Below, piece by piece: positions 39,501 through 64,000 of a stretch of 64,000 nucleotides of DNA. Each line of letters opens with the position of its first letter. The first letter of the stretch is position 1. Made by a program: the position numbers and the translations under genes. The DNA is taken from assembly GCA_964658305.1 (NCBI GenBank), contig OZ210884.1:5146001-5210000 (forward strand). The letters run 5' to 3'. The notes under the pieces are model-generated. The model was not told the origin of the DNA. It searched no databases and saw only the letters and a list, made by a program, of their open reading frames with translations. Source of the stretch: Leptogorgia sarmentosa (Eukaryota).

Positions 39501-42500
39501 ATTGCAGATCCCTAACGTTGGATTTGGATTCTAAACCTTGAACTTCGGGTTCCTCTTCATGGACTCTGGATTCCTTCCATTATTACAATTGCAACCCCGC
39601 CCCCAACATACTTGAATTTCGCATTCTCGAAAGCCCAAAAAAGTTGGATTCCGTATTACCTGACATGGGCAAACTATGTATATTTCGTTCTTGTGGTATA
39701 TGAAATTCTTACTAATCATGTCCCTGATCTGAAATGATCTGAATAGCATGCATTGTTGCTTCCACAACGTGTCTTAGGAGAGAAACAAACTATGATCATT
39801 TGTTACCAACAGCTAAACTAGGTGAGATTGAAATCCAATGAACCATATCCATAAATATATGTCTTTCACAAAAAAGTTCAAAAGACGCCAATCTATGTTT
39901 TTACATATGATTTTGTCAAAGTTCTAAAACCTCTAATACCAACCTGTACATGTATGGCCATCTCCTGTGTAACCTGGGTTGCACACGCACGTAAATGATC
40001 CTTTTGTGTTTGTGCATGTTGCCTCATCTGGATCAGGATCACAGCTATGGCTACCGCTGGTACATTCGTTAATATCTGAAAAAGGTTTAGAAAAAGGGTT
40101 TTTCAAAAAGGCTGAGGGTTGCCCTGTTAACAATAACAAGACGAAGAACACTATGGAATTGGAAATAGATTATATTTATTTCAAAATTTTACATTCATTC
40201 CGAAGTAAGTGTGATTATTTTGTTTTGAGTAACGTTATTCAAAGGCTAGAGGGAGTATGGTTTATCTAAACATAACCGCACTATGTGCAGTTTGAACTTT
40301 TAGTGTATTGAATTTTTATTAGTAATGTACACACGTAAAATATCGCAACAAGATGTGTTGACAATCTTGGAGCAGGTCTGCTGTGGATTTGTCACAGCTT
40401 GTGCATTTTTTTACGTAGAGGAACATAAGAAGGAAGTGCTAATTCGTTCTTTTCAAAATTTCCGTGAACGTAACCTTTAAATAGCTTGGCTGCCAGTTTT
40501 TGTTATGATTTTCTCAAATTCCATGAAACAATAATACCAACCTGTACATGTGTTTCCGTCTCCTGTGTAACCTGGGTTGCACGCGCAGGTAAATGATCCT
40601 TGTGTGTTTGTGCATGTTGCTTCATCTGGATCAGAATCACAGTCATGGCTACCGCTGGTACATTCGTTAATATCTGAAAAAAGATTGTAATTGCTTCATG
40701 TACAAAGTGTCTCAAACAACCCAAAAGCATAGAAATTAACGCGTTGTTTGAAGTTAAATATTACTGAATCCACAATAACAAGATTTTTAAATCCCAGATG
40801 GAAAACAACGTACACTTTACAAAAAAATACAGTAGCTGTTAATCGCCTTTTCAATATTTTACGCATCTCTGCGTTCAGCTTAGTGGGAATTCAAATTCAA
40901 ACGATGGTGTATTTCAGCGACTATGGTTTATTTTGGAACTGCGCGTACTTACCATCACAATCAATTCCATCTCCTGTCCAACCTGGGTTACAAGCACATG
41001 AATATGATCCTTCAGTGTTGGTGCAAGTCGCCTGCTCATGACAGGTGTCAAAATTCAGTGTACATTCATCAATATCTATACAAAAAGGCAAAAGTGATAT
41101 CAGTTGTCATTTGGTAAAACTATGATTTGATTTCCCGAATGATATTAGTGCGAATTGACCCTATTGTACCTGCGGGCGTAGGAAAAACATCAAATTATTC
41201 ACAAATCAGTGTTCTCAATTTCTTCTGATTCTATTTTCTGTTAAACTTTGTCTGTCTGCTTTTTCTAATTTCGCTGCTCAGTTTCATATTTGCAAACTAT
41301 GCATGGCTTATCTTGCGCTTCTCAGGAAAAAGTCAGAAGATTTACGTCATCCATCAATTAAACGTTGTGATTTTATATTTCGTTATTTTATTTTTTTTAA
41401 TTTCGCTCAATGATAATTGGATAAGAGAGAAAATACTAATCACTAATACAACTATTTAAGGTGATGGGTTAGGAGCCCACCTAGTAACCACATGGACTTC
41501 TAGATAATAATATAATTTAACTACTATGTTTAACTATTATTCGTCCAGCGTTTTTGTAAACTGACCTTCACAAGTTGTTCCGCTTCCGGTATACCCAGGA
41601 TCACAAGTGCAACCGAAGGAACCTACTGTATTGGCGCATGTAGCGTTATCATCACAGTTGTGACCTCCCGTTATGCATTCGTTAACATCTAAAAGTTCAT
41701 CAATATTTATCACTGAGTAAATTTTGTCTTTCCAGTAAACGAAAAAAGGCAGTCAATTTAGATGTTCGGAATAATAATTTGTCAAGCCAGCCGAACGAAG
41801 TGACCATGCTATGTTCCGCATGTTTCTTCCAAATATTATCCTTACATACCTCCACAAACAGCACCAGTTCCTGCATATCCATTGTTACACATGCACTCAA
41901 ATGAGCCATCTGTATTTCTACAAGTTGCCAAGGTTTGGTGACAAAATTTAGGTAATAAACATTCGTTTACATCTGAAAACATAGACATAATTTCCTGCAT
42001 TACATAGAAAAAGGTGGTTTATATATTTCATTTCGTCGAGGAGATGGTCAGGATTAATCATGGTATTAATTTAATAACAACGAAAGCTGTATTGTAATCA
42101 TTCTTGTCAACCTTTGAACAATTTACTATGGCAAGATTGGCGTATTATTCATTGAAAAAATAACCATAGCAAGTTTTTTAAATCGGGAATTTTGCATGAG
42201 TTTATCTTTCCGAATGCTTTCATCGCATTGCTTCATGTTCACGTTAGAACAAGATGTTCATCGCCTTGCTTCACGTTAGAACAAGAAAACATTTACCATC
42301 ATCATCAATAATGCTAACTGTTGATCGACTTCGACCCAGTGTAACACCACTGACACTGTCGTCAAGGGTCAGCACGATGGAAAAAGTTTCGAATCCCTCG
42401 TAAATGTCATCTGTTTTTAACGGTATGGAATAAGAACAATCTCGATCTGCAGTTACTTCTGTTATATTGAACAAGATGTCTGCATCATCATAATCGTCCA

Positions 42501-43825: not shown

Positions 43826-44928
43826 CTAAAATAGAAAAAAACAATTACCGTGTTTAATAAGTTATATCTCTATTCATTTAAGCAACTTTCTTTACGACAA
43901 CAGTTTAGACTGGCTGTTGCATCATGGGAACTATTTTTGTTATTGCTCATACAGATACATGTTGATGGAGTTACGACACTGTTGAATAAATGGGAAATAA
44001 GTTATCGCTAAAAACTTTCATTTCTTTTTACATATTTCTACTCTGTCTCATTAAACTACACGTATACTACAGTGTTTTAAGAAAAAGGTAATGCAAACTT
44101 TAGGAAACGTTTGTGTGTAGTATTTTTTGAACAATGAAGATAATAATTCGTTTAAAATCTTTGCAACTATACGCTAGACCTGTATCAAAACTATCAGGCC
44201 AAAATGACTGCAACAAGGCGAGTGAAAAGTAAAGTGGAAATCGTTTTGACACCAGCAGCTATTGTTAGTCCTCGCACAAAATCGCTTAAAATATCTCAAT
44301 GTACGACAATGCTTTTTTTTCGGTGAATTATGTTGGACTTTCAACTTTCTTTGAATGAATCGCGGTTTGATTGAAAGCTCCTATGTTTGTAAACGTTTTC
44401 TCCTTTTGTTAGCTGAAGCAGGTTTTCGCTTATCTTTTAAAGTAATCTTATTTTAATTCCCATTGGAAATTATTTATTATTATAAATTATGCATTATTTG
44501 TCCGCCCCCATAAAACCACAAACAACTTCTTTTTTATGGTCCATGTATAAAGTATAGTATAGCTTTCAGTAAAATGTTCATATTTTTGATCTTTTTTACA
44601 TTCGATTTTTCTTCTGCTAAAATGTCAATTCTTTTGCTAAGAATTTTAGGCTGACCTTCAGGTATTTTCATTTTCTTTTCCTAACTAGAGGGCATTCAAA
44701 TACTGCATACCTTCGCCTTTAGCAGAATATCAATTAACTTCATTACGCATTCATATTTGAAAAAATAAAGCAACGAAAGTTTCATTTCCTTAATTTTTCA
44801 CTTGTTTCTCAAATTGTGCTAAAATTTGATCACCTCTTCCTTGGGCAGTGGCAAACAATTGTGCAAAGCTTTGCGGCAAAATGTTCGTTATTTCAAAAGA
44901 TATCGTGTTCACAAACCAACACACACAA

Positions 44929-45100
44929 GCCCCTTACAGACGAGCGAGTTTTCTATGAGAAGCTCGCCTGTACGTGCCACTTTGCCAATTTTTTATCACA
45001 GGTGTACTAACTTGTTCAAAAGCTAGGGAATTGTCGTAGAAAAAATTGGCACAGTAAGGAATTTGCCCACCTGTACGGTCACACAAAGAAAACTTGTCAA
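44929..45100. mobile_element. Partial copy of the Harbinger-type family at 13529-14444
   Basis: agccccttacagacgagcgagttttctatga matches that TIR; internal acttgttcaaaa.gctag and aaacttgtca also shared. Confidence 0.6.
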
Positions 45101-46056
45101 ACCACTGACGTCAAACCACAAGCTACTTACTGTGTATTTCGGGAAAAAACGGAAATCTCGACAGCTAAACTGTAAAAATAATAGACTTGCATGAGTTATA
45201 TATCCAACCCTGAATACTGCATGTAGCTAGTCTTTTGAAAGGTCTGAAGGAAGTATCTGGGTGGAAAAATTGTCCATTTCACAACCCCCCCCCAACCCCC
45301 CAATCCCCCCCTCCCCCCAACCCCCCAGAATATTTATTGTCATTCAGTGACGAAGTCTATTTTTTTTTAAAGTCCAGAGAATCTTCGGCACTGCAGTTTA
45401 TCATTCGTTTCTCACTTCTATCTCGATACGAACTTAATAATAACGAAAATAACTAAAATATGAGTTAATAAAGCCTCTTTCAGCTCTTAAAATTAATTGT
45501 CTTTGATATTGTGATAAATATCTAGCTGTTTGTGTCTAGCAACCTCACATCAACACGTACAGCATTGTATTAAAAACAATCATCGCGAAAAAATAAATTC
45601 ATATCTCGAAACGCTAAAACGTTTTTGCTTTCGCGGGAATTTGAGACTCATAGGGAATAGCAAATACAAATTCAACCTAACTCACAAATTGAGTTTACAA
45701 AATGAACTACCAACTATTACGTACCTATACAGTAGCTGAAATTTAACAAATTCAGTCATTAATATTGTTGGAAAGCAATTGTATGCGCTTTTGAACACTA
45801 GTTTTACTCCACTGAAAATCAATACTCCCTTTTTTAGTCATATGCATGCATGCCTTTTCCTTACAAAGCCGCAATGTTTTTTATTTTTTTTGATAAATTT
45901 ATACAAAAACATGCTTTCTTACGCGTCTTAACTGTAAAAGTAATTGAACGCACGCCAAAACACAACAAATAACGTTTATAACGATTTACCACGCAACACA
46001 TATTCGACAGACATAAAAAATGCCCAGAGCGATGACCAACATTTACCACTTTAAAG

Positions 46057-48462
46057 CCCAGCAAACACACGACGTCGTTTCGACGTCGAATTTAGGTTGA
46101 TATTTGGTCGGGACGTCGATCGACTATATATCGACGTTGAATCGACGTCGTTATCCTGACCTCATATCGACGTCGACAAACTGACCTCGTTTCGACGTTC
46201 AATCGACGTCGTTATCCTGACTTAATATCGACGTCGACAAATTGACCTCGTTTCGACGTTCAATCGACGTCGTTATCCTGACTTAATATCGACGTTCAAT
46301 CGACGTCGTTAACCTGACCTGAACATTAAAACTAATTAAAAATATATATATTTACGTTTTGGGCCCTATAACTGACGTTAAATATGGATCAGCATATTTT
46401 AATTTATACCCCAACATACAATTGCATATCAACACTTTAGAAACTGATCTTTTGGGCAAAGTTCGTACCGACGACTACGTTTGCTATTTCAACCTTTTTC
46501 AACATGTGATTGATCGTATTTACTAAGACATTGATAGTTTTAAATAATTTTGAACTTTTGGGTAGGGTATTTGTATAGGAAATTACTCGGTTCGAGAAGT
46601 ATTGATGAAAAATTGCACGCGTGCTTGGACTTTGGCGAAATACGAATAAGGTGTCGCGCATTCGGCCCAAACTCGGTTCGGGCCGTTCGGCTCGGCATAC
46701 AATCGGCGATGACACGAGACTGAGAATCATGGGAAGTGTTGTCATAGACGCTCACAAACCGCGTGTATTCAAAATTTCACACAAAGGATTTCATTGCTTG
46801 TCGTTGTTCTTGTCTTTTGGGGATAATTTCCCGTTCATTTAGTTGATTTAATTCAAGACTACAGAAAAGGTTAGTATAATATGCAACTTGTTTATTTTTA
46901 TTTTGTGATATATCGCTTTATATTTCGTTCAATCAGTGTGCACTGCGATGCGCTTCGAAGTGCTCGTGCTTCAAAAGTGCTGGTTCAATAAACTGAACTG
47001 AAACACTAGTGATCAGCACTATAATTCACAAAATTAATCGCTTCTACACAAAGGTCAATTCTGTATCGTATATTCTTACTATGCTACAGAAAAGTCGATT
47101 CCTAGCTCTTCCTCGACAATGATGTGTAACGTTTGTGTATTTGATTAGTACGTAGTGTTACATTTTACAATCCAAATCAATCTAGTAGTTTAGTTTGACT
47201 TTGTCAGCCTGGTTTCATCAGTGATATATTAAAAACCGAGTATTTCTGCGTAGGAAATTTTTTGTAATTGATTTAGGCTGGTTTTCAATTTTTTCAAATA
47301 GAATTTCAGACAACCAATTATACAGACTGAGCATACAAAGAGGCAGTGTAAGCGAATTTTTTAGGGGGGGGGGGGGGGCTTTAAGCAAATAATCACTAGT
47401 TAGTAGGGTCATGCATAACTCATCAGGTTTGTTAAGCAAATAATCACTAGTTAGTAGGGACATAACTCATCAGGTTTGGCAAAAGCGATTAAGCAAACTG
47501 ATTTTTTTGATATCCTTTCAAAATTTGTTGACTTAAACTGGCTACAGTAGATCAAGACTATAAACCTGAACTACAATGCCATTGCTATGCTAATTCCATA
47601 CTGGCTGGCACACATATTGTGTTGAAGATGAAAATTGAGAATTACTTGCTTTCAATAAATCGATTAACAAAGCCATCAAAAAGATAACTGCTTAGTTATG
47701 TAGAGGGATATACTGTAGCTACATTAGAGAGACAGGCTTAATTAATTGATATTTTTCACTTATTAGAGCACCGAAAGTGATGTTTATAAAGCAATGGGAC
47801 AGATTTTAAAGTATACTCCGGACAGGAAAGGGGGAAGTAGAAAGTCTATCTATAATCGATCATTATGGGACATTTTTCATAATAAACATATAGTCCATAC
47901 ACAAGATTGATAACTGTAACTGCAGAAGATAGTATAATATATATAGGTCCAAATTGGAATCGCTTAATTACAGTTCGGTGTTTGTAAATAATCAAGTGTA
48001 CTAAAGTATATAATATGTAATATGTAAGATACTGACTGAGTTCGAAAATAAATATATCATCAAAACAAATTGCAACAGAAAATTTATTAATTTTGATCAA
48101 TTTGCAACTTCGTCGCATTTTCCAACGTACTATCGACGTCGAAAAGTCAACGTTGAATCGACGTCGAAACGTCAACGTTGAATCGACGTCGAAAGTCTAA
48201 CGTCGATTCGATTTGCGTTTTCGACCTGTTTTTCGACGTCGTATCGACGTCGAAAAGTCAACGTTGAATCGACGTCGAAAGTTCAACGTTGAATCGACGT
48301 CGAAAAGTTAACGTTGAATCGACGTCGAAACGTCAACGTTGAATCGACGTCGAAAGTCTAACGTCGATTCGATTTGCGTTTCCGACCTGTTTTTCGACGT
48401 CGTTTCGACGTCAGGTAGTAACGTCGATTCGACGTTGAATCGACGTCGGTGTGCTTACTGGG
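46057..48462. mobile_element. Non-autonomous EnSpm/CACTA(CMC)-like element, 2.4 kb, 2-bp AG TSD
   Basis: Termini cccagcaaacacac / gtgtgcttactggg, each flanked by AG; dense subterminal tcgacgtcga repeats at 46070-46320 and 48130-48450; no transposase ORF. Confidence 0.82.
47381..47478. repeat. ~50-bp direct tandem duplication
   Basis: ttaagcaaataatcactagttagtaggg..cataactcatcaggtttg occurs twice. Confidence 0.85.
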
Positions 48463-50307
48463 AGCTAAAGTCCATCTTCGATTTTCATTTTTAGGTAAAT
48501 CCAAATTTAATTATACTAACTTGTAAATTTTTGCCCCCAAAATATTTCCATTAAATCGGACATACAAAAACCCATATATATGCACACCTGAAGACCTGAC
48601 CAAGGGCAGAAAAAAATCTCCTATTCTTGTATTAATGAAGCTACTAACCTCCGTTTATTATCCAAGGAAAGTGCAAAGGAATTGCGCTCATCTAACTTGC
48701 GCACTTTAATTTCAAGTGCGTGACAATGCAATGACTTGAAATACTTGGTAAATAGCTACAGTGCAATAACAATTTTGTTTTGACGTATTTCTTTACAAAT
48801 TTAATGCTGTAATAACCTTTTGGTGTAAAACCTAATAACATATAGGCATTTACAAAATATGAATTAACAATGTGATTATCACTATTAACTTAAATAGTGT
48901 GTATTAACTTTTTTTTCAACAATTTTAAAAAAGAACATGTAGTTTATGCGCGTGTCAGTTTAAGTTGTATAGCTACTATTTTTGAATGCTCACTTTATTT
49001 TGTTTTATCTTAGTGGATGTCGAGATATCAATGCTAGTAAACCGTGAAAAGTATAATCATAGAGATTGAATTCCTAGCATTATTCAAGTTTACCGTGGCG
49101 AATAATTGACGTATGATTGAAGTATTGTTTTTTATCATATGTTGAACATGGCAACACTGCAACACAGTCATTACATACTGCACGTACTTATATGCAGTGA
49201 TGAGATTTTCTATATGTTTGTCCCCAAGTTAAGATTTAACATCTGCAGAAACTCTTAGACAGGATGGAGATTTTGTACTCAAGTACATGGGATTGTATAA
49301 ATGCCCAAGATCTAATCTTGTATAGTTTCAAAGAAGCTTTTATAAAGTAATTGCTTTGCTAAATGATCCTGGCTGAAGGCTTCATCAATTTAATCTGTTT
49401 TTCATCCTCGTCTTAATTTTGGTGTTGAACGCTCTGAATTATTTAAAAGGACTGTCATGCATTCAAAACAAGAGAAACGTAATTATTCTTATTGATATGT
49501 TTTCTGGAAACAAACAAACTGTCATCAGATTTCGAATTCTTCTCGTGATATATGTATTCAGTCAAAGTGCTGATCAGATGGAGGAGGACATTATTGAAAC
49601 AAATTTGAAATTGTAGAGTTAGAGTTTGCTTTTAGCTAATAGGTGAGGCCTGGAAGACATGTTTCTGTTGTTGGATTGTATCCTCAATTTTTAATTGCAG
49701 TGATTACAAAATTCCATCACGAAAACCAAAACATTTGAGTCTTTCAGACAATCACGCCATAAGAAATTCCCAGTATATAGAAAGGCGATATCATTACTAT
49801 AAGTCGTGCAACAAGGATAATTCACTCATAAATAATTTTTTTCTTTATATTATTTTATTTGAGGGTGAATCTACATGAGTTTATGGCACATGACTTGTGT
49901 GACATGGAATAATTTTTATGGTTAAAATTAATGTGTCTTAGTTTACGAGTAGATTGCATGATTTCCTATTTAATTGCGAATCCTTTTAGTTAGTTTTTAC
50001 ACAGGTCGGGATTATTCTAACGAAATTTTATCACTGCACAAAAGCACAAAAATTATAAAATTTATGTAAATATAACGTTGTATAAGAAAAACTCTGAGTG
50101 TTAGCACTCGAGATGAGACACGTCATGCTAGATTTGAGACAGTGCATGATGAGATCACAGAAAGTCGTACCAGAAACTTTCAACATCGATATAGAACATC
50201 GATATTGCATCCTCATGTTTCCCAAATTGAGTCTGTTTTTCATTTATTTTGTTGCTGAATAATTATTATGTAAACTATAAAGGAATCACCGTTTTTGTTG
50301 TTGTATG

Positions 50308-50434
50308 CATAGGAGTACGAGGCGGAGGGGGCAAGGGGAGCAAGGGGGGCAACTGCGCCTCGTGACATTTGCTACCCTCAACTTCGGGCAAAGATCTTTC
50401 TGCCCCCCTGAAAAAATGTCACCCGTTCCTCATG
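50308..50434. mobile_element. Degenerate short hAT-like MITE upstream of the KDZ gene
   Basis: cataggagtacga..G-rich..C-rich..ccgttcctcatg; imperfect inverted ends. Confidence 0.45.
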
Positions 50435-50565
50435 TTCTAAATCACATATAGTGAGAATTCTAAAATTTAGAACGTCGCATATATGTGACGAAGATGATCA
50501 TCTAGGCAGTCTGGCGCGGTTGATTATGAAAAAAAGCTAGGAACTAGTTACTAAAGAAAACAAAC

Positions 50566-53500
50566 ATGGCGGAAAAGCGGGAGCGACTATGCATCAAGCC
50601 AAAGTTAAAGCGTTTTAAAGCATGCAAAATTCGTGTTCATACTAAGTCAACTAGTGGGGAAAAAATAATAAGAAATGTTCGCTTAAGAGCAGAGAACTTT
50701 TGTCGCCGTAAAGAAGACATGTTTAGGAAAACCTCGTCGGCTGATAACGACAAGATTCAGAGTCAGACTGAGGATTTCGATATGTCTGATGATGAAGCTG
50801 TTGGGAAAGATGCCCAGCAAGACGGGCTCACAAAATACCTTTCCAGACGAGTTAAGGAGTATAATAGTTGGGAAGAAGTGCGCCAATCACTGTTACATGC
50901 TCGAATTGAAGAGGAAGCTTTTTCATCCGACACAATGTGCGTTGAATGTTGCAACAGTTTGGCCGTTTGCCGATGTATGGAGTGTGGTCCAAGACAATAT
51001 TTCTGTATGGACTGTGCTTCTGCACTCCATGAAAAACGAAATTATTTCCATGTTCTTCAAGCATTTAAGGTTTGTATTGATCCAGTACCGGTACGTCTAC
51101 ATAGTACATACAGACACAATAGTGTACAACACACATAAAACATAAAACATAAAACATGAAACATTGCAGTGATAATAGTATATGGCATATACGTTTTCAA
51201 GGTTCAACTTTATTAGGATTTCTCAGATGTACTTTGCGCAATACGTGGGTTGCATACAATTAAAGAACAACCTACATACAGTTTTGAAATTCCTAGGCCT
51301 GTGTTTTTAAATAAAATGTTCAGCAATATCTGTGCACATGCTTTGAATAGTAAACCAAGATGATGGAATTTGCAAACCATCACCAAATAGCAAAACAAGG
51401 AATTAATCATCTATATACTGTGTATATACATGTATTTAATTAATGTGTTGGGTTTTTCATAATTATGCAGGATGGATCATTTATCCCTTTAATGGTAAAC
51501 CATGCTGTTGTAGCCTTGGACCATCAAAGGAAATGTTGCTTTGCAGAAGGAAGGAATATCATATGTATTGATCAGTGGGGTAAGTTTTATTGATATTGTT
51601 CTATTGTATCAAAAAGACTAATACCTTTAGTACATTACTTCTATAAAAAAGCAAATGTACTTCTGTATTTTCAATAGTATGTTAAATTATAACAATTAAT
51701 GTAAACATGGCAGCAGAACTAGCAAGATGTGCAAAGATTGTATAAAATTCTCAATGGTAATAGAATTTCTAAAACCAAAACATAATAAGGTATGCATTTA
51801 GTAGATTATCAAAGGCAAAAGATAGACAATGAAATCTTATTGAAGAACAATGTCTTAAAGCCACCATAGAAACTTGATAATGATGCTATAGTGGCTTAGA
51901 TAAGTTGTTCTTTAATTGAAATTTTATTGCTACCGTACTAGTAGACTTTAAGCATTAGTACTGTAAATTTAATAATTGACCAAAATAGCAATAAGCTTGC
52001 TATTGAAAATATTTGGTTTTGCTGTAATTCACAATGCCTATTAAATCTCTTTTCAGTTATAACAGTAGGCAATTGTCATGGTGCATAAATCTTAGTTACA
52101 CTAAGTCTTGTCATCTGTAGGACGTCAACATGAGAAGACTGTTTTATTTTGTACTTGTGAAAAAGATGCTGTAACCCTTGTGAAATTGCATTTATGGCCT
52201 GGTTCAATAAGCAGACCTCTAGTAGCATTTCACTTCAGTTTGGTGACTCTCGCTGAACTATTCCTCTTGGAATGTCATGTTTCACTCAGGAAGTTCTGTG
52301 ATGTTTTGGGTTTGAGAAAGTCTACCATGCTGCCACATTGGGTAAGTATAATTCAGTGCTGGAAATGTGATGGCACCCTATGAGTAATTTAGTAATTGTT
52401 CATATCAATCACCTTTGGTCAGACAAGCACCATTGTGCTGCAATGTTGCTTAGTGGCCATACTCAATTTTTATTGCCTAATATGAGACGATTTTAGTTGT
52501 CAAATAGGGAAGCATTTAGTTGAAGTACACCCTACTAAAAATTTTAGTCACCTTATGCCAAAATTTTACTTGTCAGGGGAAATCCTACAGCTTAAGTTTG
52601 GTTGCAGTCTGTATCTATTGTGTTAGATTACTAACCTAATATGCAGTCTTGGATTTTTTGTTTCAGATTAAGAATATATACAAAATACTTAACAATGACT
52701 CTTTTGATGAATTCCGGTAATATCCTTTTTACAATTTCAAATGTTACATCTGCAGTATCTAAGAAATAGAACTTACTTGTACTAAGAAACACAACAACTA
52801 ACTGTTATAATTTCTAACCGGTAATAGTGAATATTTTAAATACCGGTACACATTGTGCAAATATTAAGCAGTGTCTGACTAGGAAACAAGGAGTCAATTT
52901 TCCTGACACAAATGTTCTTTTTCATTTGGTAAAGTGCACCCTTGCACATGCAGTGTACAAGACATGGCTTTGTTGTTCCACAAGTACCTTTCATGTTACT
53001 CTCTCCTCCCACTGTGTACCATAGGATATTGTACACCAGGATTTAAAGATTTTGCAACACCCATTGCTGTTTGTGTCTTTCAGATATCATCAACATTTGA
53101 TGAAATCAATGAAAGAAGTGAATGATCAGCTGTCTGAAATCATTTGTCCACTTTGTCCTGGGGTAAAAATACTGTAATGCTTACTAAAGCAAAGTCCAAT
53201 ATAGCTACATTCGCACAGGCTGCCACCGAGTGCTAGAGTGTACAGGTTTCCTGAAGTAAAAATACTGTAATACTCCAAAACTACACTCATGCTTATCTCT
53301 TGCAATTTGAATGTAGAATCAGAATGAAATCAATGCTGGCAGTGATGGTGATGATGATAGACTAAGTGAAACTCAAAATGTAGTAATTGAGTCAATGGAT
53401 GGATGTTTTGGACTGACAAGGAAAAAGTCAGCTGGAATAAATCATCTACCATCAAGACATGGTACTACTATGTTTGCAGACCAGGAATGTGTTGATCAAT

Positions 53501-56500
53501 TTGTGTTGGAATATTCAAAGGATGCGAAAGAAGCCCCAGGGGTTAGTTTTCTTCCCAATGAACTGTTAAAATAGATTGTGTTTAATGTATGTTGAATTCT
53601 CTGCAGGGAACGTGAATCGAGCCATACAGGTGGTAAAATTCTTAATTATAATTAATTAACTGGAAGAAACATATTTATTTTTTAAAGAACTGTAATGAAT
53701 TCAAATCAGGAGAAGTAAATAACATGTTACGATCAAAGGGAAGAAATGCACTATTTGAAGAAAAAGGAGTATTTGGCCGAGTGTGTAGGCATGAATTCCC
53801 CAAAGGATTCATTAACATGAAACATGGTGAAAGGTAATACGCATTGTACAATTTATGCCAATATCGTTTTTTATGGGATTACAGTACATTAAACTTGTAA
53901 GTAAATAATGTCAGTAGCCTACTTACAACAAAAAATAACTTGTCAAAACTGCATATTCTATAAAATTAAGCAATTTGTGTTTAGAATTGCGTATTCAGTG
54001 TTTGAAGTTGATCGACTTCTGGCTAGTTCAGATGCTACCACTAAAGTAAAAATCATGTATGACATCGGTTGTACCTTGTCAGCTCATTTGAAGGTCAGAT
54101 ATCTTCACTCTTAAAGTTGTTCAATTTTACAAACTGTACTTGTACGACCTTAAAAGTAAAAAAAAATTAATTTTAGAGAAACAACAGGCAAGATATTTTG
54201 GACAGAATTGATTTAGCAATTCCCGTGTTCCACTGTTATGGGCATAAATCGTCATGTCAGGTCTGTACAAATGTCTCAACAGAAATGCGGTGCACAAGAT
54301 AGACTTTGATTTATGTTGTGTCCTACAATACTGTCTATCATGTTGATCTTATTACTGCACTGCCAAAGCTGGCAAGTAGAACTCGTGATTCTTAGAATTT
54401 CATTGGGCTTAATCTGATAAACTTGTTCCTGAAATGTTAATGAGAAACTGCACGTGTGTTTTGCACTCGCGGTTCTTTGCCAAACACGCGTGAAATTTTG
54501 CATTAATACTTCTCGAACCGTGATGTCTTCCTATACGGATAGCATTGGTATAGTGAATGATACTTACCTTCTTTTGCAGATTGCGTTTAGTCCACGTAGG
54601 AACAACGGTTATGGTCTAACCGACGGCGAAGGAATTGAGCGCCTGTGGTCTTACTTACGAGGATTTTCCTCCATAACAAAAGAAATGACCTATGGACGTC
54701 GTATCGATATTTTAACTGATGCGTTGTTACATTACGGACAAAGGCGTTTGCAGCAATTCGGTTTGTTTTGTTTTATTAATTGATCAAATTCCTGTGCCGA
54801 CGAGATATGTGTAATATCGTGTAATATGTCGGTTATGTTTTGAACCATTGCATATACTGTAATTTACTTTGTCACGCTTCTGACACTGAACCTAATCAAA
54901 TTAAATACGATCGTACGATCCAAATTTGGCATCTTATTCGTCACTTAACTGCGTAGGTTATGGACGTCACTCTTACGTCGTATTTAATTATTGAATTTGG
55001 TTCGCGTATGAAGAGTTCAAAGTACTTATTTAGACGTATTTATGCCACAAGACTTATGCAGCTTTGATATATCACGAGTAAATATTTCCTCTTTATAGGG
55101 CCTTCACTGATTTCAAATTTGCAGAAGGCAAAGAACCTTATGGAAAATGCAACGTCACAGATGCAGGAGATTTTTTCAAATTTAACAGGTCTGTTCTACG
55201 AGCATGGGTTTGAATTTCAGACGCCTGCCTCCCCCCCCTACTCCAAATCTAACGAAATTTCTAAAGTTTAGAGTTCATGAACAAGTTGTCACGCGGTGAC
55301 CGCATGCAACCAGTCACGAGTGTGGCTCAGGCCTAATTCAAACAAAAAATTAATTATATAAAAATTAAATACTTTACTTTTTCAGTTGAGTATGATGTTA
55401 GTTTGGTTAAATCATGGATTGGGGAAGAACAGAAGGTGTTGTTAACTCGAGAAAGTAAGTTAAAATTTAAATGCATCTATTTGTAGTTAATATATTCATT
55501 TCATCAGCACATTTTGTACTATACAAACACTGGTGCCACATTGTAGTTATCACGCAGTCAATGTTCGATTAATAATCCCTTTTTCGAAAGTAATTCACCT
55601 AAATAGTTGTTGTGTTTCAGAAACCAAAGTGTTGCCATTATCTTGGGAGGCCAAGTACGTTCAAAATCTCTTCCAGCTGGAAGAGTTGAGGTTAGAAAAT
55701 ATGGTTAACATGTGCAACAATGTATATGTGTAGAAGTTCGTTCGTTTTTCATTTGACTATCTGTTTTAAGACATAACATCGCTGCAACAGAATCGGACAA
55801 ACATGACACCATAACAGATCTTGTGAAGAAACGAAAATCGTAAGCTCGTGTATCCCTTTTAGAGCCTTACTTACCTGTACTGGGTGCCCTCATTTCAACT
55901 GTTATTTTTCATTAAATAGTACTTTGAAAACTATTGTTTCGATCGAAAAAAGTCACCGACTGAAACAACGATGGAAATTTGGTGAGGCAATGTTCAATTC
56001 TGCTGCATTAACTGTTGAAAAAGCAAGGAGAGACCAAGCAATCGAACGGATATATGCACTGGCAGTCGAAAGGATGTTTTTGCTGTCTCTTAAGCGGAAA
56101 TACGCAGGTATACACCTACGCCTATGTATGCACAGTTGCAGCTCTTGTAGGAAATGTTTGAATAGGAGATAATTGTTGTCGTTTGAAGCAACTTTTCCGT
56201 CTCTGTAGAATATAGCAAAATCCGTACACTACACGATCATCATAATTATATACATTTAGAAGACATTCAGGAATTAAGTATTACCTAAGTATTACTTTGG
56301 ATCGACACCCTTCCGCGGTCTTCTGTTTTATATTGATGATGTTAAATTTATGAATGTTGTATTATCGTTTTTTGTTAGATGGCCAAGCGATAGCAGCTAA
56401 GTTATCAAAACAGATAACACAAAGGACCAACGGAATTAAAGTCTCTGTAGAGAAATATAACGCCTCCCTGTCTTCCTGGAAAGAGAAAGTAGATGGAATG

Positions 56501-57055
56501 CCTGAACCACTGAAATTCGATGACGTTAAGGATCCTCAGTGTAGCATATTTGCCGATTTCAGAGGAAACTCGTCCAATCAAGATGGTGTACCATTTTCTG
56601 TAAAGCGAAATGTGATTGATCTTTATCACTTGATTGAAAGATGCAAGGAAGAGGTGTCCTATTTAAATATGGAAATAGTGAGGCTTGTTAAATACTATGA
56701 AAACCGAGTATCTGTATTGGAAAGGTTTCTTCATTCACATGTGGACGATACATCTGTTTATATCAAAGGAATGAAGTGTGTTGCTAGAAGGCAAATTCGC
56801 GAGGAAAAAAATAAACTGTACGGTCTTGGCTCAATATTCAAGGACAATCTTCCTATGGAATTCCAGTCTTCTTTACCAGAGTGTGAATTTAAGTTCGAAG
56901 CAACTCGGACGCTCAATGTGTTCAGCGCGGAAATCTCCACTAACTCGGAAGAACTTGAAATAGTAAACAGTGATAATGATGATATAAACGACGAAGACCA
57001 TGATGAAGAATTTGCCCTTGTACTGGATCTCTCAGATGACGAAGAATATATTTAG
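50566..57055 (+). CDS. KDZ (Kyakuja-Dileera-Zisupton) transposase with N-terminal CxC3-like cysteine cluster; 16 exons, about 956 aa, apparently intact
   Basis: Exons 50566-51069, 51471-51579, 52121-52341, 52667-52716, 53084-53162, 53317-53541, 53688-53833, 53985-54093, 54177-54260, 54580-54760, 55099-55188, 55386-55454, 55621-55690, 55771-55839, 55920-56107, 56379-57055 join into 2871 nt of open frame. Motifs: CRCMECG..FCMDC..LH..H, CTC..LWPGS..P.VAF, CPLCP, SMDGCFGLTRKK, GVFGRVCRH..MKHGE, YDIGC, IPVFHCYGH..CQ, GYGLTDGEGIERLWS, KYADGQAIA. Confidence 0.92.
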
Positions 57056-57287
57056 ATAGTTTAAAAAGAGTTGTAAAAGGGGGCAAAAACATTTCCCTTG
57101 TGTTTTCGTGTTAGTGAATGCAGCGTCGACAAATGATTTCTTTAAATACATGATTTGTAATATTGATAATTTGTGCTGCATATTGTAAAATATCAAAACT
57201 GATTGTTTTGAAACTAAATTATTCACTCGTTTTAGCGGGGCCCCCAAATGAGCGACCCCTTGGAATAAGCGCCGCGTGTATCTAAAA

Positions 57288-57392
57288 CAGTACAGTAGCG
57301 TAGCCAGCCCGACGATTTAGTCCCGCTATGCATGTATCTTGAGTTAAAATACTGTGAAGCGGGACTAAATTGTCGGGCTGGCTACGCCACTG
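57288..57392. mobile_element. hAT-like palindromic MITE
   Basis: TIR cagtagcgtagccagcccgacgatttagtcccgct / agcgggactaaattgtcgggctggctacgccactg; near-identical 8-bp flanks atctaaaa / atctgaaa. Confidence 0.82.
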
Positions 57393-58952
57393 ATCTGAAA
57401 CCCTAGAAATTTACTAGAAAACAGTCATAGAATAAATCATTTTTAACTCTTATGTGGTATGCGCTAGTTGGTCACTTTCCCTATCACTACCCAGCAGCCA
57501 GTAGGGTTAGGACTAAGGCTGTTTTTAGGATCACATTTAGATAGAGATTAGGTTTTTGGATTGCCATTTGATTGTCGTATTCATTTTTTCCTTACCAAAC
57601 CTATTGTGCTTAGTAGAAATTTCAGTTGCCCAACCATTTCTCTTCGACCTTAACTCTAGGCATAACAACTGACCGACCGACACCTAATACAAAATACGTA
57701 CATACATGCATCTTCCGACACGCACTTTTTGTTTTTATAGGGTTTTGAAAATTAACATTCCAATTTTCATTCATCTTTTAATCTTCACCATCAAACCGTA
57801 TAAAGAATTCGAATTGAAGTTCATTAATGTAGAGAATACTATACGCGCGAACAAAGGCGTATTAAATTGGAGTGGGTGGGGGGTTACGGTAGTTTTTATC
57901 CAGGTAAAGTTGTCGGCGCTGGACTAGTATTGAGAGTCTCATGTACCTTTTTTAATGTTTCCTATAATTAAATTAATGAGGTTAACTATTATTACTTGTT
58001 TGCAATCACGTGACTTTTCGCCCAAATGACGGGCAATTCAACAATGTGTGCACAATTTTTCTCAGCATCTGAGGGGTTGTAGCGAGATAAACTAAACGGT
58101 AACACATCTATCAAGACTTAAAACGTCTCAAACTCTTAAATGTTTCTAATGGATTGAATTTCGTCATAGTTGCCTGTCAACTGAAATTCCAAATCCATGT
58201 CCTTGCAAACGACCAATTTAGGTCTCATACATCCACAATGATCTTGATGTTGCATATGTTTGTAATCATTCAAAGTAAAAAATTCCGGCAGCGCACCATT
58301 AGCATTAATAAACATATCGATATGCACATTACTTAAATGTGCAGCATTGATTACCCCAACTGTACTGCATCATTTGTAAAACCACACCTAACAACTATGA
58401 TGCTCTTTGCAATACAACGACCTGTGTATGACGTCATAGTTTACTAGGTTTCAAATCAACGAGCAAACATTGCGCGCCACAATACGCTCTATACTGATTT
58501 TTTTGCTTATCTAACGCCCAACGACTTTACTTGATCAGTATCGGCAAACTGCAGCTAGTAATGGTTGGGACGCATGCATATAGATAAACTCGTTCAAGAT
58601 TGAAAATTAAGAAATATTATTATTAGAAACACTCGTGAAACTATTGAAAACATATACGGCGCATTTATGAGTTGTAAATAATATAAATAAATTCTTCATT
58701 TATACGATCTCTAAATTGAGAACATTTTGCAGCACCGTTTAACGTAGTGTCAGCACCCTTTGAGGGGTGGTAAGACCATAGGCCATAGGGTAAGACTCGG
58801 CCCAAGCTTCTGATCTCGAGTGTTGTGCTCGTTTCTCGAATTCAGAGTATTTGAGTATTCCGTCAATTCAGTTCGTTTTATTAAACTTTGAAGAAATAAT
58901 ACTTTCATTGAACGGTGAAGTAACACAGAAAGAATATGTAGCTGAAACGAAA

Positions 58953-60540
58953 ATGGCAGAATCTTTAAATTCAACTGAGGGGTCCCATAAGGTATCGGAT
59001 CTTCGTCGTATACGTACACAATGGTAAGAAGCAAAATATGTGAAATATAATATTTGTTTTCTTTTGTGGAAACTATTATGGGTGGGAATGGTTGAAAATA
59101 CACCTCCTGAAGTTAGTTCTGTATGGCGAATATCTAGAAATAGAACTACTATTGTTTACATTTTTAGGTTGTCAATGTTATTCATTCAAGATATGTCATC
59201 TCGTGTAAAATGCTCGGAGGTATTGGCGGAGTTAACAAGCAAATTTGAAGGCATTTCAAAAAGAGAATGTGGCTTTGTTGTTCGTGAATGTTTTTCAGCT
59301 ACAAGAAGGATCCACAGTAACCACATTTATTACTACACAGGAATTCGTCGTATAACAACAAATGAATATTCAAATGAAGTACCAACACATGTGAATATAA
59401 ATAAGGGTATGTAATATAATTAGGTCATTTCATAAATTTTCATTTAATACCCACACACCCCTGTGGATGATAGTTCCTACATAAAATTTTCCCCTATACT
59501 CCTGACAGGAAAAAAATCAAATTCAAAGGCTGTTAACATTGTCACACCCCCACTCATTCAGAAATTAAGCTCGGGCAAACCTTTAGGAAATTTCATCCTC
59601 ATTTGGTGGGGTTTTGCATATCAAAAGGGAATGGCCCTATGTGCTACTTGCTGATACACGATTACTATTAGTGTCCCAGATAGCCTTCAATTATTTCAAC
59701 CGGTAGACTATCAATTTGTTTGTTTATAAAATATGCTAATATTGTTAAAACCAAAATTATTATTATATTCTTTCAGCTGAGGTGCAAGATTCATTATCCT
59801 CATCAGGCTCACTGCTATGTGAAATACCACGTTGCATGCATGTCAACCGATTTGAACTCCTACCTTCTCCAAATGGAAATGGACAAAGTACTTATAACTT
59901 TCCTAATGGCAATTTTAAACATCTTACGCTGCAGTACTTCAGAGGATATCCAGTTGCTGTTAGACAGTACCAAACATGCATTGTGAATGAAGCAAAAGCA
60001 TTGCTTAGTTTACCATCACATCATTGTTTTCCAGAGCTTATTGGTGTGTGTTGTGAGCAAAAGCCATATCTATTAATTACACTATTCTATGGCAATACAA
60101 GAAAAGAAGTGTATATGTCATTACAAGGGTTGTTGGAAAGTGATGTTAATGATCTTCAGCAATGGGCAACAATTCTGTTCAATGTTGCACAAGGATTGCT
60201 TTTGATGCATTCTTGTGGATTTGTGCATGGTGATCTCAAAGCTGAGAACATAATAATGAGGAAGAAAGAAAAGAACAGCAAACTGTCACAACCTGTGTTT
60301 TTGAACCTGGACAAGGTCAGGTCATTGGATAAGACAATTGACAGAAACATGTTTAACCTGGACTATCAGATGTTTGGCCTTTTGATGGAAATCGTAATTT
60401 TAAAACTTGGTAGTTGTATTGCAGATAGCAGACAGTTGTCTGCATTTGACAGTGTAGTGCAGGTGGTTAAAAAAATTCCTGATGACAGCACAGACTTCGC
60501 AAATGTTGTTTCTCAGTTGCAAAGAATTTCAAAAGTGTAG
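58953..60540 (+). CDS. 3-exon gene, about 357 aa: RFX-type winged-helix domain fused to a degenerate (pseudo)kinase domain
   Basis: Exons 58953-59023, 59168-59406, 59777-60540 splice in frame (1074 nt). N-term QWLSMLF...ECGFVVRECFSATRRIHSNHIYYYTGIRR (RFX-like); C-term FRGYPVAVR, EAKAL..H..FPELIGV, FVHGDLKAENI, DYQMFG. Confidence 0.75.
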
Positions 60541-60993
60541 ATGGAACAATGGTTGAACATCTTTGTGACTGTGATACACAAACTTCTCTACTACTTATTT
60601 TTTAATAAATTTTCTTCATATAATGATGATAATTCAGACTGATGCTTGTCTACACCAGGCAAGCTGAAATATCAGCTAGACCATCAGATTTGAAACCACT
60701 GATAACCCAGGGCTGATTCACAACACAACTGCATAAATTTATTACAATACATTTAAAAACCTTGCACCTACACTTGAATCATTTTACTGTACCATAATCA
60801 TATTAATCACAATAACATGTTTCATGGAGGGTTTTCTAGTGGTGAGGGTTTGCTGAACCCACCAAAACTTTCTTTTACCCCAATTCCCTCATCAATCCTC
60901 TCTCAATCTCCCTCTCTTCTCCAGCATTTTTTCACATAATTTTGAAATCAGGGTTGGAAGTAATTCTAAAAAAAATAAGGCATCATTAGTGTA

Positions 60994-61307
60994 CACACGG
61001 AAAAATGCACAAGTTGTGACAAACCTGCAGCAGACTTGCTACAAGATTGTTCCTAAAAAACGGATATCAAGTTGTGTTTGCACTGCTTGTTCCAGACTTG
61101 TTGACAAGTTGTTACAAACCTGCCGCAGACTTGTCACAAACTTGTTGATTATACAGACTTGGCAATTCAACAACTTGTTAATAGGTTGAGAGTGACAAGC
61201 TTGTAGCAACTTGTCAAAATAACAACATTGTTACAACTTGTTGACAGGCTTGTTACAAGCTTGTTGCGAACACATCTTGTTGACAAGTTGTGAGATTTTT
61301 ACGTGTG
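60994..61307. mobile_element. TA-flanked MITE with acaagttg/acaacttg internal repeats
   Basis: TIR cacacggaaaaatgcacaagttgt / acaagttgtgagatttttacgtgtg, TA on both sides. Confidence 0.82.
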
Positions 61308-61570
61308 TAGTCCAGAAAACAGCACTTTATGCCCAATGAAATTATCTTCCCCACTCCTGTTTAGAAAAATGCCCTTGGGAAGTTCTTTAGCAATAACTTT
61401 CAAGGATGTACATATGGAAATTATCTCAAAATGGCAACTACAAAAACATTAAAAAAAACCTAATTTAAGCAAACTATTCATAAAGCATTTCTTTACATTG
61501 CACGTACTGTACGCAAAATCGCATGTCCAGCATCATTACTCCTAGAGTGTTTCCAGTTCAGCCTTTCCGT

Positions 61571-63867
61571 TCATGTTCCAGTTTCCAGTTCAGCCTTTCC
61601 AAAACCATGTTTTTCCAAGCAAGTGAGGATACTTCTATGAAAAATACCAGATATGCTGGTCAAACTCTTGTCTTTCAGTGGCAACTTGCGTCGTATGAAT
61701 AATGGTACCCGACCAAGTATGTTCTTTTGCGTATCATTTAAACAGATAATGCTTATTCCATTCACAGATACTTTTTTCTTTCCAAGAACCAGTTCGTACA
61801 GGTTTTCGTTCCTCTTATTTAGCCAGTAGCCCCATATCTTCTGGTCATCACAAAGCTGCTTAACTTCTGATAACTTGCCAGGGTAATAAAAGAGCCAATA
61901 TTCTCCGGCAGATAATGTGTACGTAGGAAGAATATAGCCTTCGTGGTTATAACAGCTCTCGTGGTTCGTTTTTAATGAAATCCATGCATCATCACTAAAG
62001 TACTTTGCTTTGTTTCGGGACAGCAAGTTAAACTCAATCTCACTAAGATCAAGGTCTTGCACTTCCAGCTCGCTTTCCTCTATTAACCTTCTGCCGGATA
62101 CCACCTCCTTCACTAAATTATCTTCAATGATCTTTCGTAAAACTCTCTGTAAGGTTTCATCATGATCATTGCTGGTGGACAAACTATCACCACGTGGTTC
62201 AACATGAAATTCAATGCTATCTTGGAATCTCATAATGGCATTCACTTGATCTTTACCATAACTGCTTGGTTTCTTGAAGGTAATGCCAGCAGGTAACCCA
62301 GTAACTGTGAAGCCGCCTTTCAAGTAAGGTACTCTAGAACCTAGAATTCCACAAGCATTGCCTATAAAAAACGCATTCATGAAGTTAATCGCGGAACTGG
62401 TCTGCAATACTCGAGATCTTTTTCAGTATATTCTACTCTGTATTGCGAAATGGAGTAAATAGGTCTTTGTATATATCGTGCAATAGATATTTATATATAT
62501 TATATATATATTGCACGATATATATATTGATAGTTTCTCTTTGAATGTGATGTAGTGTGTTCTGTAGTTCAATTTAGTTTAAGTTGTCGTAAGGATTATT
62601 TTTTTACAAACATTTGAATGGCACGCATGATAAATATACTGAAAGTACGTATCCTAGACCTAAGCGATACGGAGTTATTTGACGTTTTTATTTAAAAACT
62701 CCATTTTTGTGTGTATAAATCACCCCTTACGAAAATTCAGTATACTTGCCAATTGTAGATATATTGTGCAATACCACTAGTTAAGAGGGCAATCGCCCCC
62801 CTGTTGGAGTTGGGTTAATTGCCATGACCAAGGCATGACCAAAGCTTTGCTATACACCACTTCATTTCCCAAAGCGAAAAAAAGAGAAATACTATTGGGT
62901 TACGCCCTGGTAGCACTCACTATATTTTTTATTGAACATATCTTGTACATCTTCACGAGTATATGCAGATTCAATGGCTTGTGAATCATCTAGAAAATAA
63001 ATATCAGTCCTATGTTATGAATGACCAACAAAGAAAATATCACATTAAGATATTACACACACCAAAATAATCCATGAACTTCAAGGGCACTGCCTCATTC
63101 TGAATCAGGAAATGGACTCCACTTTTCGATCCAAATTGTTTGACTCCCCCAGTTTCTGGCTCTACCATGAGAACAGCTAGTTCACACCCCAGGCTTTCAA
63201 GGTAAGATAACTAATTATCAAAAAAAATTCACAATTAATAATTCATATAGAAAACATTTACGAAGTGAATCTGAGAGTGTCCATGTGATGAGGTCTGTCG
63301 ATGCAATAATGGCCTTCACATCCATGTTGTATCAGATATACACAACCTATTGGGCCCTTCAGCTTGATGCAACATGGCTGCTCATGTTTTACTATTCTTA
63401 AATGCAGTTACCTTTTGCATGATGTAAAATGCAATTGTATGGCAGCTAGAAGTAGTTTTTCCACAAGTTAGGCCATTTGAAGTGTCTTATAGGAGGCTCA
63501 AAAATTGGGAACATATTTTAATATTTAATATATTTATGTTTACATATTGCAAGAAAAATTAACCTCCAAAGAAATGAAGAAATCCCCACACCAACTTATT
63601 AGGCAAACGACAACACAATGAGCCACGTTAAACTATTTCACTATTCTACTGATGAGTAAAAATGTTAACATACCTCTTTAATAAGATTCTTTTTCCCCTT
63701 GCTGATAAGTCTTCTTCTTTCACTTGCTGTTAACATTTCTGGGTTATATTCTTCAACTGTTTTAGCTTTATCTTGCCATATTTTTCTTTCTTCTTCACTA
63801 AGAGACTGCCATTTTGTAGCAACAAAGCTCATTTTCTCTGATTTTGATGCAATTTCTTTGCACTCAT
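61571..63867 (-). CDS. Gene (5' end beyond window): HMG box + TFII-I N-terminal-like segment + GTF2I (I-) repeat + unknown C-terminal domain
   Basis: Exons 63867-63674 (KMSFVATKWQSLSEEERKIWQDKA, HMG helices 2-3), 63210-63063 (LESLGCELAVLMV..FGSKSGVHFL..FMDYF), 62989-62921 and 62361-61571 (TREDVQDMFNKKYSNACGILGSRVPYLKGGFTVTGLPAGITFKKPSSYGKDQVNAIMRFQDSIEFHV); all phases compatible. Confidence 0.82.
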
Positions 63868-64000
63868 CTGAAAAGAAATATTTTTCATATTATTATTTTA
63901 ATATCTTTTCCTGGGCAAAAAGTTCATATGAAGAAAATGCTGTGGTCATATTCCCTACAAAATGTCTTGTAAAAGACTCAGGTGCATTTATTTAACAAAG

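What the first reader, a model, noticed from the sequence alone, without database searches (positions are those of the whole stretch)
50566..64000. Candidate cargo-carrying KDZ transposon: intact transposase + RFX-pseudokinase + HMG/TFII-I-like gene
Seen: three compact, intact, intron-containing genes within about 13.5 kb, none resembling an ordinary housekeeping gene. They are a CxC3/KDZ transposase, a winged-helix-pseudokinase fusion and an HMG-GTF2I-repeat protein. Known: fungal KDZ transposons travel with accessory chromatin genes (TET/JBP, HMG), and Zisupton gave rise to HMGXB3. Inference: the three genes form one large animal KDZ element with an undescribed set of DNA-binding accessory proteins. 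I could not identify its termini, and the right end probably lies outside the window.
Basis: partly seen in the sequence, partly recalled or inferred. Interest (0 to 1): 0.88.

Follow-up and report, generated by a model that had tools for sequence, protein, structure and literature searches.

The report
Coral transposon carrying two DNA-binding genes
Three spliced genes in what is probably a soft-coral genome (a KDZ transposase, a likely dead kinase with a predicted DNA-binding wing, and a protein with the repeat of the human TFII-I transcription factors) likely form one large jumping element, because their relatives recur as multi-copy, apparently neighbouring genes in other soft corals; the element's ends are not yet found.

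Summary
The three genes are real. The KDZ transposase (50566-57055, 16 exons, 956 aa, no stop) keeps its conserved acidic residues. Its cysteine cluster is CxC1/CxC2-type, not CxC3. Gene 2 (357 aa) has an RFX/D5-type winged helix by predicted structure, plus a kinase fold lacking the ATP lysine and DFG. Gene 3 has HMG, MADS-like and true I-repeat domains; its 5' part lies outside the window. Contigs of two runs are spliced at predicted introns of genes 1 and 3.

In Dendronephthya, 8 of 12 listed gene-3 loci carry a gene or protein number consecutive with a KDZ gene. One of 4 gene-2 loci does too, and genes 2 and 3 share two contigs of equal length. Contig depth rises near 50350-50470 in several individuals.

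This supports a multi-gene octocoral KDZ transposon. The KDZ plus gene-3 pair is strongly supported, gene 2 moderately. Termini, target duplication and an empty site were not obtained, and all three genes together were not seen in another genome. Cargo-bearing KDZ elements are known in fungi and algae; this animal cargo set was not found in ten paper searches.

The parts
50349..50467 (.). Interval that probably holds the left end of the element; candidate first bases 50443 (CACATA, as in many fungal Kyakuja elements) or 50420
   Evidence: Run X3: contig 50023-50348 at depth 6.3, depth 28.9 at 50467. One X8 contig joins foreign sequence at 50420, not found elsewhere in the window. 11 of 36 Kyakuja rows that I read start with CACATA. 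Not settled.
50309..50434 (.). High-copy short inverted-repeat element (MITE-like) at the left boundary
   Evidence: Depth peak and loose ends at 50355 and 50426; hairpin fold
50566..57055 (+). KDZ transposase gene, 16 exons, 956 aa: Cys-rich N-terminus, CxC1/CxC2-type cluster, KDZ core (D349, D471, E526/E529), helical C-terminus with acidic tail
   Evidence: 7 of 15 introns appear as GT..AG joints in the cut table
53688..54760 (-). Antisense spliced transcript across KDZ exons 7-10 (introns 53958-54074 and 54149-54567), no long ORF
   Evidence: One contig of one run (X12 record 10); minus-strand GT-AG sites and longest stop-free frame 63 codons
54480..54536 (.). High-copy short repeat nested in KDZ intron 9
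   Evidence: Matches at 15096 and 46573; depth peak
57991..58175 (.). High-copy short repeat between genes 1 and 2 (right edge approximate)
   Evidence: Loose ends at 57991 and depth peak
58953..60540 (+). Gene 2, 3 exons, 357 aa: RFX/Pox_D5-type winged helix (about residues 15-85) fused to a likely inactive protein-kinase fold
   Evidence: exon 3 covered by spliced-run contigs
60966..61496 (-). Intron in the 3' UTR of gene 3; it holds a MITE-like repeat (60992-61309), and the UTR runs on towards the 3' end of gene 2
   Evidence: CT..AC joint in X8 and X12; splice sites; loose ends
61571..63867 (-). Gene 3, last four coding exons (399 aa): HMG box, MADS-like domain, GTF2I (I-repeat), C-terminal domain of unknown fold; 5' exon(s) with a homeodomain-like region lie beyond 64000
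   Evidence: 2 of 3 coding introns appear as joints

Best explanation
The region from about 50.4 kb to beyond 64 kb is likely one copy of a large octocoral KDZ cut-and-paste DNA transposon that encodes its transposase and two likely accessory DNA-binding proteins. The transposase would bind and cut the ends through its zinc clusters and acidic triad and leave a 7-8 bp duplication (inferred from the family). Gene 3 would act as a dimeric DNA-binding and bending partner (MADS-like dimer, HMG box, homeodomain-like region, I-repeat) on the element's own subterminal or promoter DNA, helping synapsis or the element's transcription (inferred from domains). Gene 2 would bind DNA through its winged helix and use its dead kinase fold as a scaffold or decoy; it looks like an optional module in this lineage (inferred). 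Antisense RNA over the catalytic exons would damp activity (inferred from one contig).
For: Shown: intact frames and splice sites, splicing in two runs, conserved D349 12/12, D471 15/15, E526 and E529 16/16. D. gigantea: 12 gene-3 loci listed (15 of 16 cluster members shown); 8 of 12 have a LOC or XP number consecutive with a KDZ gene; 10 of 12 show a scaffold length equal to that of a KDZ gene, one only 26,489 bp; crude chance for 8 of 12 is 1.5e-18. Identical proteins sit at 3 (gene 3) and 4 (KDZ) loci. Xenia: 1 of 3 gene-3 loci consecutive with KDZ. Gene 2: LOC114542714 follows KDZ LOC114542713 on an 89,114-bp scaffold, and a second locus shares a 783,412-bp scaffold with a KDZ gene; genes 2 and 3 occur on contigs of equal length, 5,206 bp and 148,446 bp. 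The window's KDZ falls in an octocoral clade (100/99) with both partner types. Contig depth flank versus inside: X3 4.9-6.3 versus 17.4-21; X1 204 versus 284-453; X5 7.3 versus 9.8-13.4.
Against: No terminus, inverted repeat, target duplication or empty site was shown. Adjacency in other genomes rests on accession numbers and scaffold lengths, not coordinates; order and orientation are unknown, and some D. gigantea copies could be haplotigs. All three genes together were not seen elsewhere: 2 of 4 D. gigantea gene-2 loci and all 5 Xenia gene-2 loci have no consecutive KDZ among those listed, and the D. gigantea family closest to this KDZ is numbered directly next to gene 3 with no gene 2 between. 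The tool warns that contig depth is no copy number; X6 shows no clear step, and a hemizygous flank could give a two-fold step. No function of genes 2 or 3 was tested; the gene-3 model is poor (mean pLDDT 48) and its MADS-like match is Z 7.7, within the range of common arrangements.
Confidence: 0.75

Rival explanations
1. The element is a two-gene KDZ plus gene-3 transposon, and gene 2 is a separately mobile or passively captured passenger with no role in transposition.
For: The closest D. gigantea KDZ family pairs directly with gene 3; none of 5 Xenia gene-2 loci is consecutive with a listed KDZ; gene 2 is flanked by nested repeats at 57991 and 60992; catalytically complete winged-helix kinases exist in amphioxus and unnamed sources with no KDZ link shown.
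Against: Gene 2 is open in relatives at 36-53% identity, follows a KDZ gene in another D. gigantea family, and shares contigs with gene 3 twice; it has no transposase of its own; depth over gene 2 equals depth over its neighbours.
Confidence: 0.17
2. The three genes are a fixed, domesticated or segmentally duplicated host cluster that no longer moves.
For: All five DNA runs laid hold the flank and most of the three genes; the genes are transcribed and spliced; nested repeats are shared among individuals; no ends were found.
Against: The transposase is complete with its acidic residues; relatives are dispersed, near-identical multi-copy families; depth inside exceeds the flank in four of five runs; nested insertions fixed among copies are reported for giant KDZ elements of Ectocarpus (PMC12477816, passages).
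Confidence: 0.08

Closest known systems
Cryptococcus neoformans KDZ1-3 (Dileera clade; PMC11588098, passages read)
   Same: KDZ domain with CxC1, about 10-11 kb, three coding genes in KDZ1, antisense non-coding RNA over the transposase
   Different: Fungal; accessory genes of unknown product; 236-bp inverted repeats and 8-bp duplication shown there, not here
Kyakuja, Dileera and Zisupton elements of fungi with TET/JBP cargo (Kojima 2025, PMC12730594; sections 3.1, 3.2 and supplement parts 1, 9-11 read; Iyer 2014 not held, recalled)
   Same: Large multi-gene KDZ transposons; Kyakuja ends start 5'-CA, and CACATA occurs at a candidate left end here
   Different: No TET/JBP gene in the window part; cargo is a winged-helix pseudokinase and an HMG/MADS-like/I-repeat protein; the Kyakuja CAG motif at positions 10-12 is not found upstream of this gene
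Fish Zisupton and HMGXB3 (Bohne 2012 not read; recalled, and passages in PMC9297572 and PMC12062965)
   Same: Animal, multi-exon KDZ transposase
   Different: No CxC5/6/7, SWIM, SAP or SUMO-protease family was reported for the exons or relatives scanned; the HMG box is on a separate gene
Vertebrate TFII-I family (GTF2I, GTF2IRD1, GTF2IRD2; Pfam PF02946)
   Same: True I-repeat: Pfam E 5e-8 in the window and 2e-13 in D. gigantea; best PDB sequence hits are 2dzr, 1q60 and 2dn4
   Different: One repeat rather than several; extra homeodomain-like, HMG and C-terminal domains; multi-copy and transposon-linked. It is not the hAT misannotation described in PMC10641963 (passages read), which concerns the Charlie8 part
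Giant KDZ elements of Ectocarpus (PMC12477816, passages read)
   Same: Over 10 kb, extra transcribed genes, nested repeats
   Different: Brown alga; accessory genes mostly unknown

Membership tests
KDZ DNA transposons | KDZ transposase domain (PF18758) | tested here: met
   Exons 6-10 match successive profile parts 4-213 of 217, best E 1.9e-10; full-length relatives E about 1e-40
KDZ DNA transposons | CxC cysteine cluster before the KDZ domain | tested here: met
   CxC1 E 5.2e-9, CxC2 3.9e-6
KDZ DNA transposons | Conserved acidic triad | tested here: met
   D349, D471, E526/E529 invariant in 12-16 aligned rows; their catalytic role is recalled, not tested
KDZ DNA transposons | Multiple dispersed copies | tested here: inconclusive
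   Met for D. gigantea and Xenia relatives; in this species only contig depth suggests it
KDZ DNA transposons | Defined termini with 7-8 bp target duplication | not testable with these tools
Kyakuja versus Dileera clade | Place in the KDZ tree; 5'-CA..TG-3' ends without inverted repeats and 7-bp duplication (Kyakuja) or 8-bp duplication (Dileera) | tested here: inconclusive
   The tree held animal rows only; the candidate left ends start with CAC but are unproven
RFX-type winged helix | Winged-helix fold like RFX or Pox_D5 | tested here: met
   Relative P0083 residues 14-90: TM 0.76-0.84 to RFX and Pox_D5 models, both predicted; helix-strand-helix-helix-strand-strand order at pLDDT 78-90
RFX-type winged helix | Sequence match to PF02257 | tested here: inconclusive
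   No hit listed
Active protein kinases | Beta-3 lysine, catalytic-loop aspartate, DFG | tested here: not met
   Lys is Arg in 17 of 17 rows; DFG absent in 15 of 15; Asp present in 1 of 16, the near-identical copy of this gene. Activity was not assayed
TFII-I family | I-repeat (PF02946) | tested here: met
TFII-I family | N-terminal dimerisation domain homologous to that of TFII-I | not tested
   A resemblance is recalled only; no tool gave a vertebrate sequence of that part. The domain looks MADS/SRF/NRF1-like
TFII-I family | Several tandem I-repeats | tested here: not met
   One matched stretch in each of P0013, P0063, P0077

The most novel reading that the evidence does not exclude
This is an active animal KDZ lineage whose standard companion gene (homeodomain-like, HMG, MADS-like dimer, I-repeat) is the mobile stock from which the vertebrate TFII-I/GTF2IRD factors were domesticated, and which also recruited a DNA-binding pseudokinase as a third subunit or host-kinase decoy, making a three-protein transposition system.
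Probability: 0.3. Interest if true: 0.87.

Novelty: new variant of a known kind. Interest (0 to 1): 0.7.

Why it matters
It would extend cargo-carrying KDZ transposons from fungi and algae to animals, with a conserved companion gene. It places a true I-repeat in a mobile, multi-copy gene of soft corals, which makes a transposon origin of the Williams-syndrome TFII-I family testable by phylogeny and gene neighbourhood. A DNA-binding pseudokinase as transposon cargo was not found in the papers searched. The copy is intact and transcribed, so it is a practical candidate for a first mechanistic study of an animal KDZ element with partners.

Tried and rejected
Locus scans found nothing: metagenome contigs with gene 3 and gene 2, viral contigs with gene 2, prokaryote genomes with gene 3. 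No RNA holder was listed on record; X8 and X12 are read as RNA only because their contigs are spliced. Run X7 has no cover on 50547-54172; no contig was shown joining across it, so I draw nothing from it. Position 50000-50052 was considered as the left end because three runs branch at 50052, but X3 holds 50023-50348 at flank depth, so it is more likely part of another repeat. No inverted-repeat partner for any candidate end lies in the window. The spaced Kyakuja-like pattern matched twice in the window against 0.24 expected, was chosen after the fact, and has different spacing from the fungal ends. An in-window upstream exon for gene 3 (63960-63900) was rejected: no donor site, and the spliced contig carries other letters. 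Sequence searches for RFX gave nothing. The viral fold library returned only kinases. The C-terminal domain of gene 3 was modelled below pLDDT 50 for most of its length and no fold was assigned. Seven of 34 listed substitutions fall in coding exons that make up 38% of the span, 4 of them silent; the tables were cut and I left out rows in high-copy repeats, so this carries little weight. No complex prediction was run. Iyer 2014 is not held; Bohne 2012, Repbase entries and subscription papers were not seen and may describe such elements.
Full report
Observation. I read 39.5-64 kb and built gene models from splice sites. The KDZ gene runs 50566-57055 on the plus strand in 16 exons, all 15 introns GT-AG, giving 956 aa without a stop. 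It aligns at 58% over residues 15-953 with a D. gigantea RefSeq protein. Gene 2 runs 58953-60540 in three exons, 357 aa. Gene 3 lies on the minus strand with four coding exons from 63867 to 61571; relatives have about 107 more N-terminal residues, which lie outside the window. The closest named relatives are from Dendronephthya, Xenia and Paramuricea, so the window is probably octocoral (inference).

Expression. No run was on record as RNA, but contigs of X8 and X12 skip exactly the predicted introns: 7 of 15 KDZ introns and 2 of 3 gene-3 introns appear in a table that was cut at 15 of 28 rows. Gene 2 exon 3 is covered from its acceptor on, but its joints were not displayed. An X8 loose end at 63872 reads in frame like the HMG helix 1 of the D. 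gigantea protein, so the missing exon exists. Gene 3 has a further intron in its 3' UTR (60966-61496). One X12 contig uses two minus-strand GT-AG introns inside the KDZ core, an antisense transcript without a long ORF; KDZ1 of Cryptococcus has an antisense RNA in the same position (PMC11588098, passages).

Domains. KDZ: Pfam CxC1 and CxC2, not CxC3, then PF18758 across exons 6-10. D349, D471, E526 and E529 and an H-H-C insert are invariant among aligned relatives. Gene 2: the C-terminal part folds as a protein kinase (Z 16.6, rmsd 3.3 over 198 residues, model of relative P0083). The beta-3 lysine is arginine in 17 of 17 rows, DFG is absent in 15 of 15, and the catalytic aspartate is present in 1 of 16, so it is likely a pseudokinase; two more distant D. 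gigantea members not in that count also keep the aspartate. The N-terminal domain has no sequence hit but matches RFX and Pox_D5 winged helices by predicted structure, TM 0.76-0.84. Gene 3: a true I-repeat (Pfam 5e-8; PDB hits 2dzr, 1q60), a weak HMG box, a MADS/SRF/NRF1-like middle domain (Foldseek E 0.07-0.6, VIA Z 7.7 with rmsd 2.8 over 70 residues, from a low-confidence model), a region annotated as homeobox-like in D. gigantea and an unassigned C-terminal domain.

Linkage in other genomes. No genome was available and four locus scans were empty, so I used accession numbers and scaffold lengths. In D. gigantea 12 gene-3 loci were listed (15 of 16 cluster members shown). Eight of 12 are numbered directly next to a KDZ gene: LOC114523900/901, 114519867/868, 114536431/432, 114539691/692, 114537187/188, 114525592/593, 114544252-254 and XP_028404241/242 (15 of 19 members shown for the largest KDZ cluster). 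The other four are 2, 4, 6 and 54 numbers from a KDZ gene. Ten of 12 show the same scaffold length as a KDZ gene; for two the length was hidden. A crude binomial gives 1.5e-18. That consecutive numbers mean neighbours is recalled practice of NCBI annotation and was not checked on coordinates. In Xenia 1 of 3 gene-3 loci is consecutive with a KDZ gene. Gene 2 is weaker: of 4 D. gigantea loci one is consecutive with a KDZ gene on an 89,114-bp scaffold, one shares a scaffold with one, two have no listed partner; none of 5 Xenia loci is consecutive with the 6 KDZ loci listed. Genes 2 and 3 occur on contigs of equal length twice (5,206 and 148,446 bp). In a tree of 21 KDZ cores the window's protein joins an octocoral clade (100/99) that holds gene-3-linked and gene-2-linked families, without closer resolution.

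Copy number and ends. In five DNA-like runs contig depth was compared between the left flank and the genes: X3 4.9-6.3 against 17.4-21, X1 204 against 284-453, X5 7.3 against 9.8-13.4, X7 7.3 against 8.2-14.4 on the part it covers, X6 without a clear step. The tool warns that this is no copy number, so it is a hint of several near-identical copies. The step in X3 lies between 50348 and 50467. Two candidate first bases fall there: 50443, which starts CACATA like 11 of 36 fungal Kyakuja rows I read but lacks their downstream motif, and 50420, where one X8 contig joins foreign sequence but which also looks like the end of the neighbouring MITE. Contigs run at least 400-580 bp past the window's right edge. 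The ends stay open.

Mechanism. Shown: intact, spliced genes; conserved residues; recurring linkage by number. Inferred: cut-and-paste mobility with a 7-8 bp duplication (family property, PMC12730594 sections 3.1 and 3.2); gene 3 as a dimeric DNA-binding and bending partner at the element's ends or promoter; gene 2 as a DNA-tethered scaffold or decoy, probably optional; antisense RNA as a brake. I put the KDZ plus gene-3 unit at about 0.9, gene 2 inside the same unit at about 0.75, and the specific roles at about 0.4.

Known context and novelty. Multi-gene KDZ elements are described in fungi and algae (PMC12730594, PMC11588098, PMC12477816; passages or sections as stated). Animal KDZ elements appear as multi-exon Zisupton-type genes (PMC9297572 and PMC12062965, passages). 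A review of giant transposons has no mention of KDZ or Zisupton (PMC6431247, term search). Searches for GTF2I with KDZ and transposon, TFII-I with I-repeat and transposon, and KDZ with kinase and winged helix returned no paper; searches listed none on this arrangement, judged from listings. The library lacks most subscription journals, Iyer 2014, and Repbase, so prior description is not excluded. Earlier AI notes of this scan report an I-repeat gene inside a KDZ element in another genome and a TFII-I-like family near transposons; they agree but are not counted as evidence.

Verdict: new variant of a known kind, interest 0.7.

Noticed in passing
window 46057-48462: 2.4-kb element with inverted ends, subterminal palindromic repeats and a 2-bp AG duplication; CACTA/EnSpm-like by recall, no long ORF seen
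   Followed up: partly
window 45164 to 48644: One X8 contig joins these places with short microhomology, probably a 3.5-kb deletion allele that removes the CACTA-like element
   Followed up: partly
window 11236-43800 (minus strand): Host gene with dozens of EGF-like exons, each in a 214-270 bp exon-intron unit amplified in tandem, up to 36.6 copies in one array
   Followed up: no
window 38596-39521: 41-bp tandem array of 22.6 copies in an intron, open in three frames on the minus strand
   Followed up: no
window 13528-14445 and 44927-45025: Inverted-repeat element of about 920 bp and a partial second copy
   Followed up: no
window 57288-57397: 40-bp inverted repeat with a 30-bp loop in the KDZ 3' region; an X8 contig runs into it, to 57334
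   Followed up: no
proteins P0188, P0216, P0253, P0295: A wider family of winged-helix kinases with complete catalytic motifs (one from amphioxus), a likely source of gene 2; neighbours unknown
   Followed up: partly
protein P0042 (D. gigantea LOC114529555): Annotated with reverse-transcriptase, Pao peptidase and KDZ domains in one model, probably a nested insertion or a fused gene model
   Followed up: no
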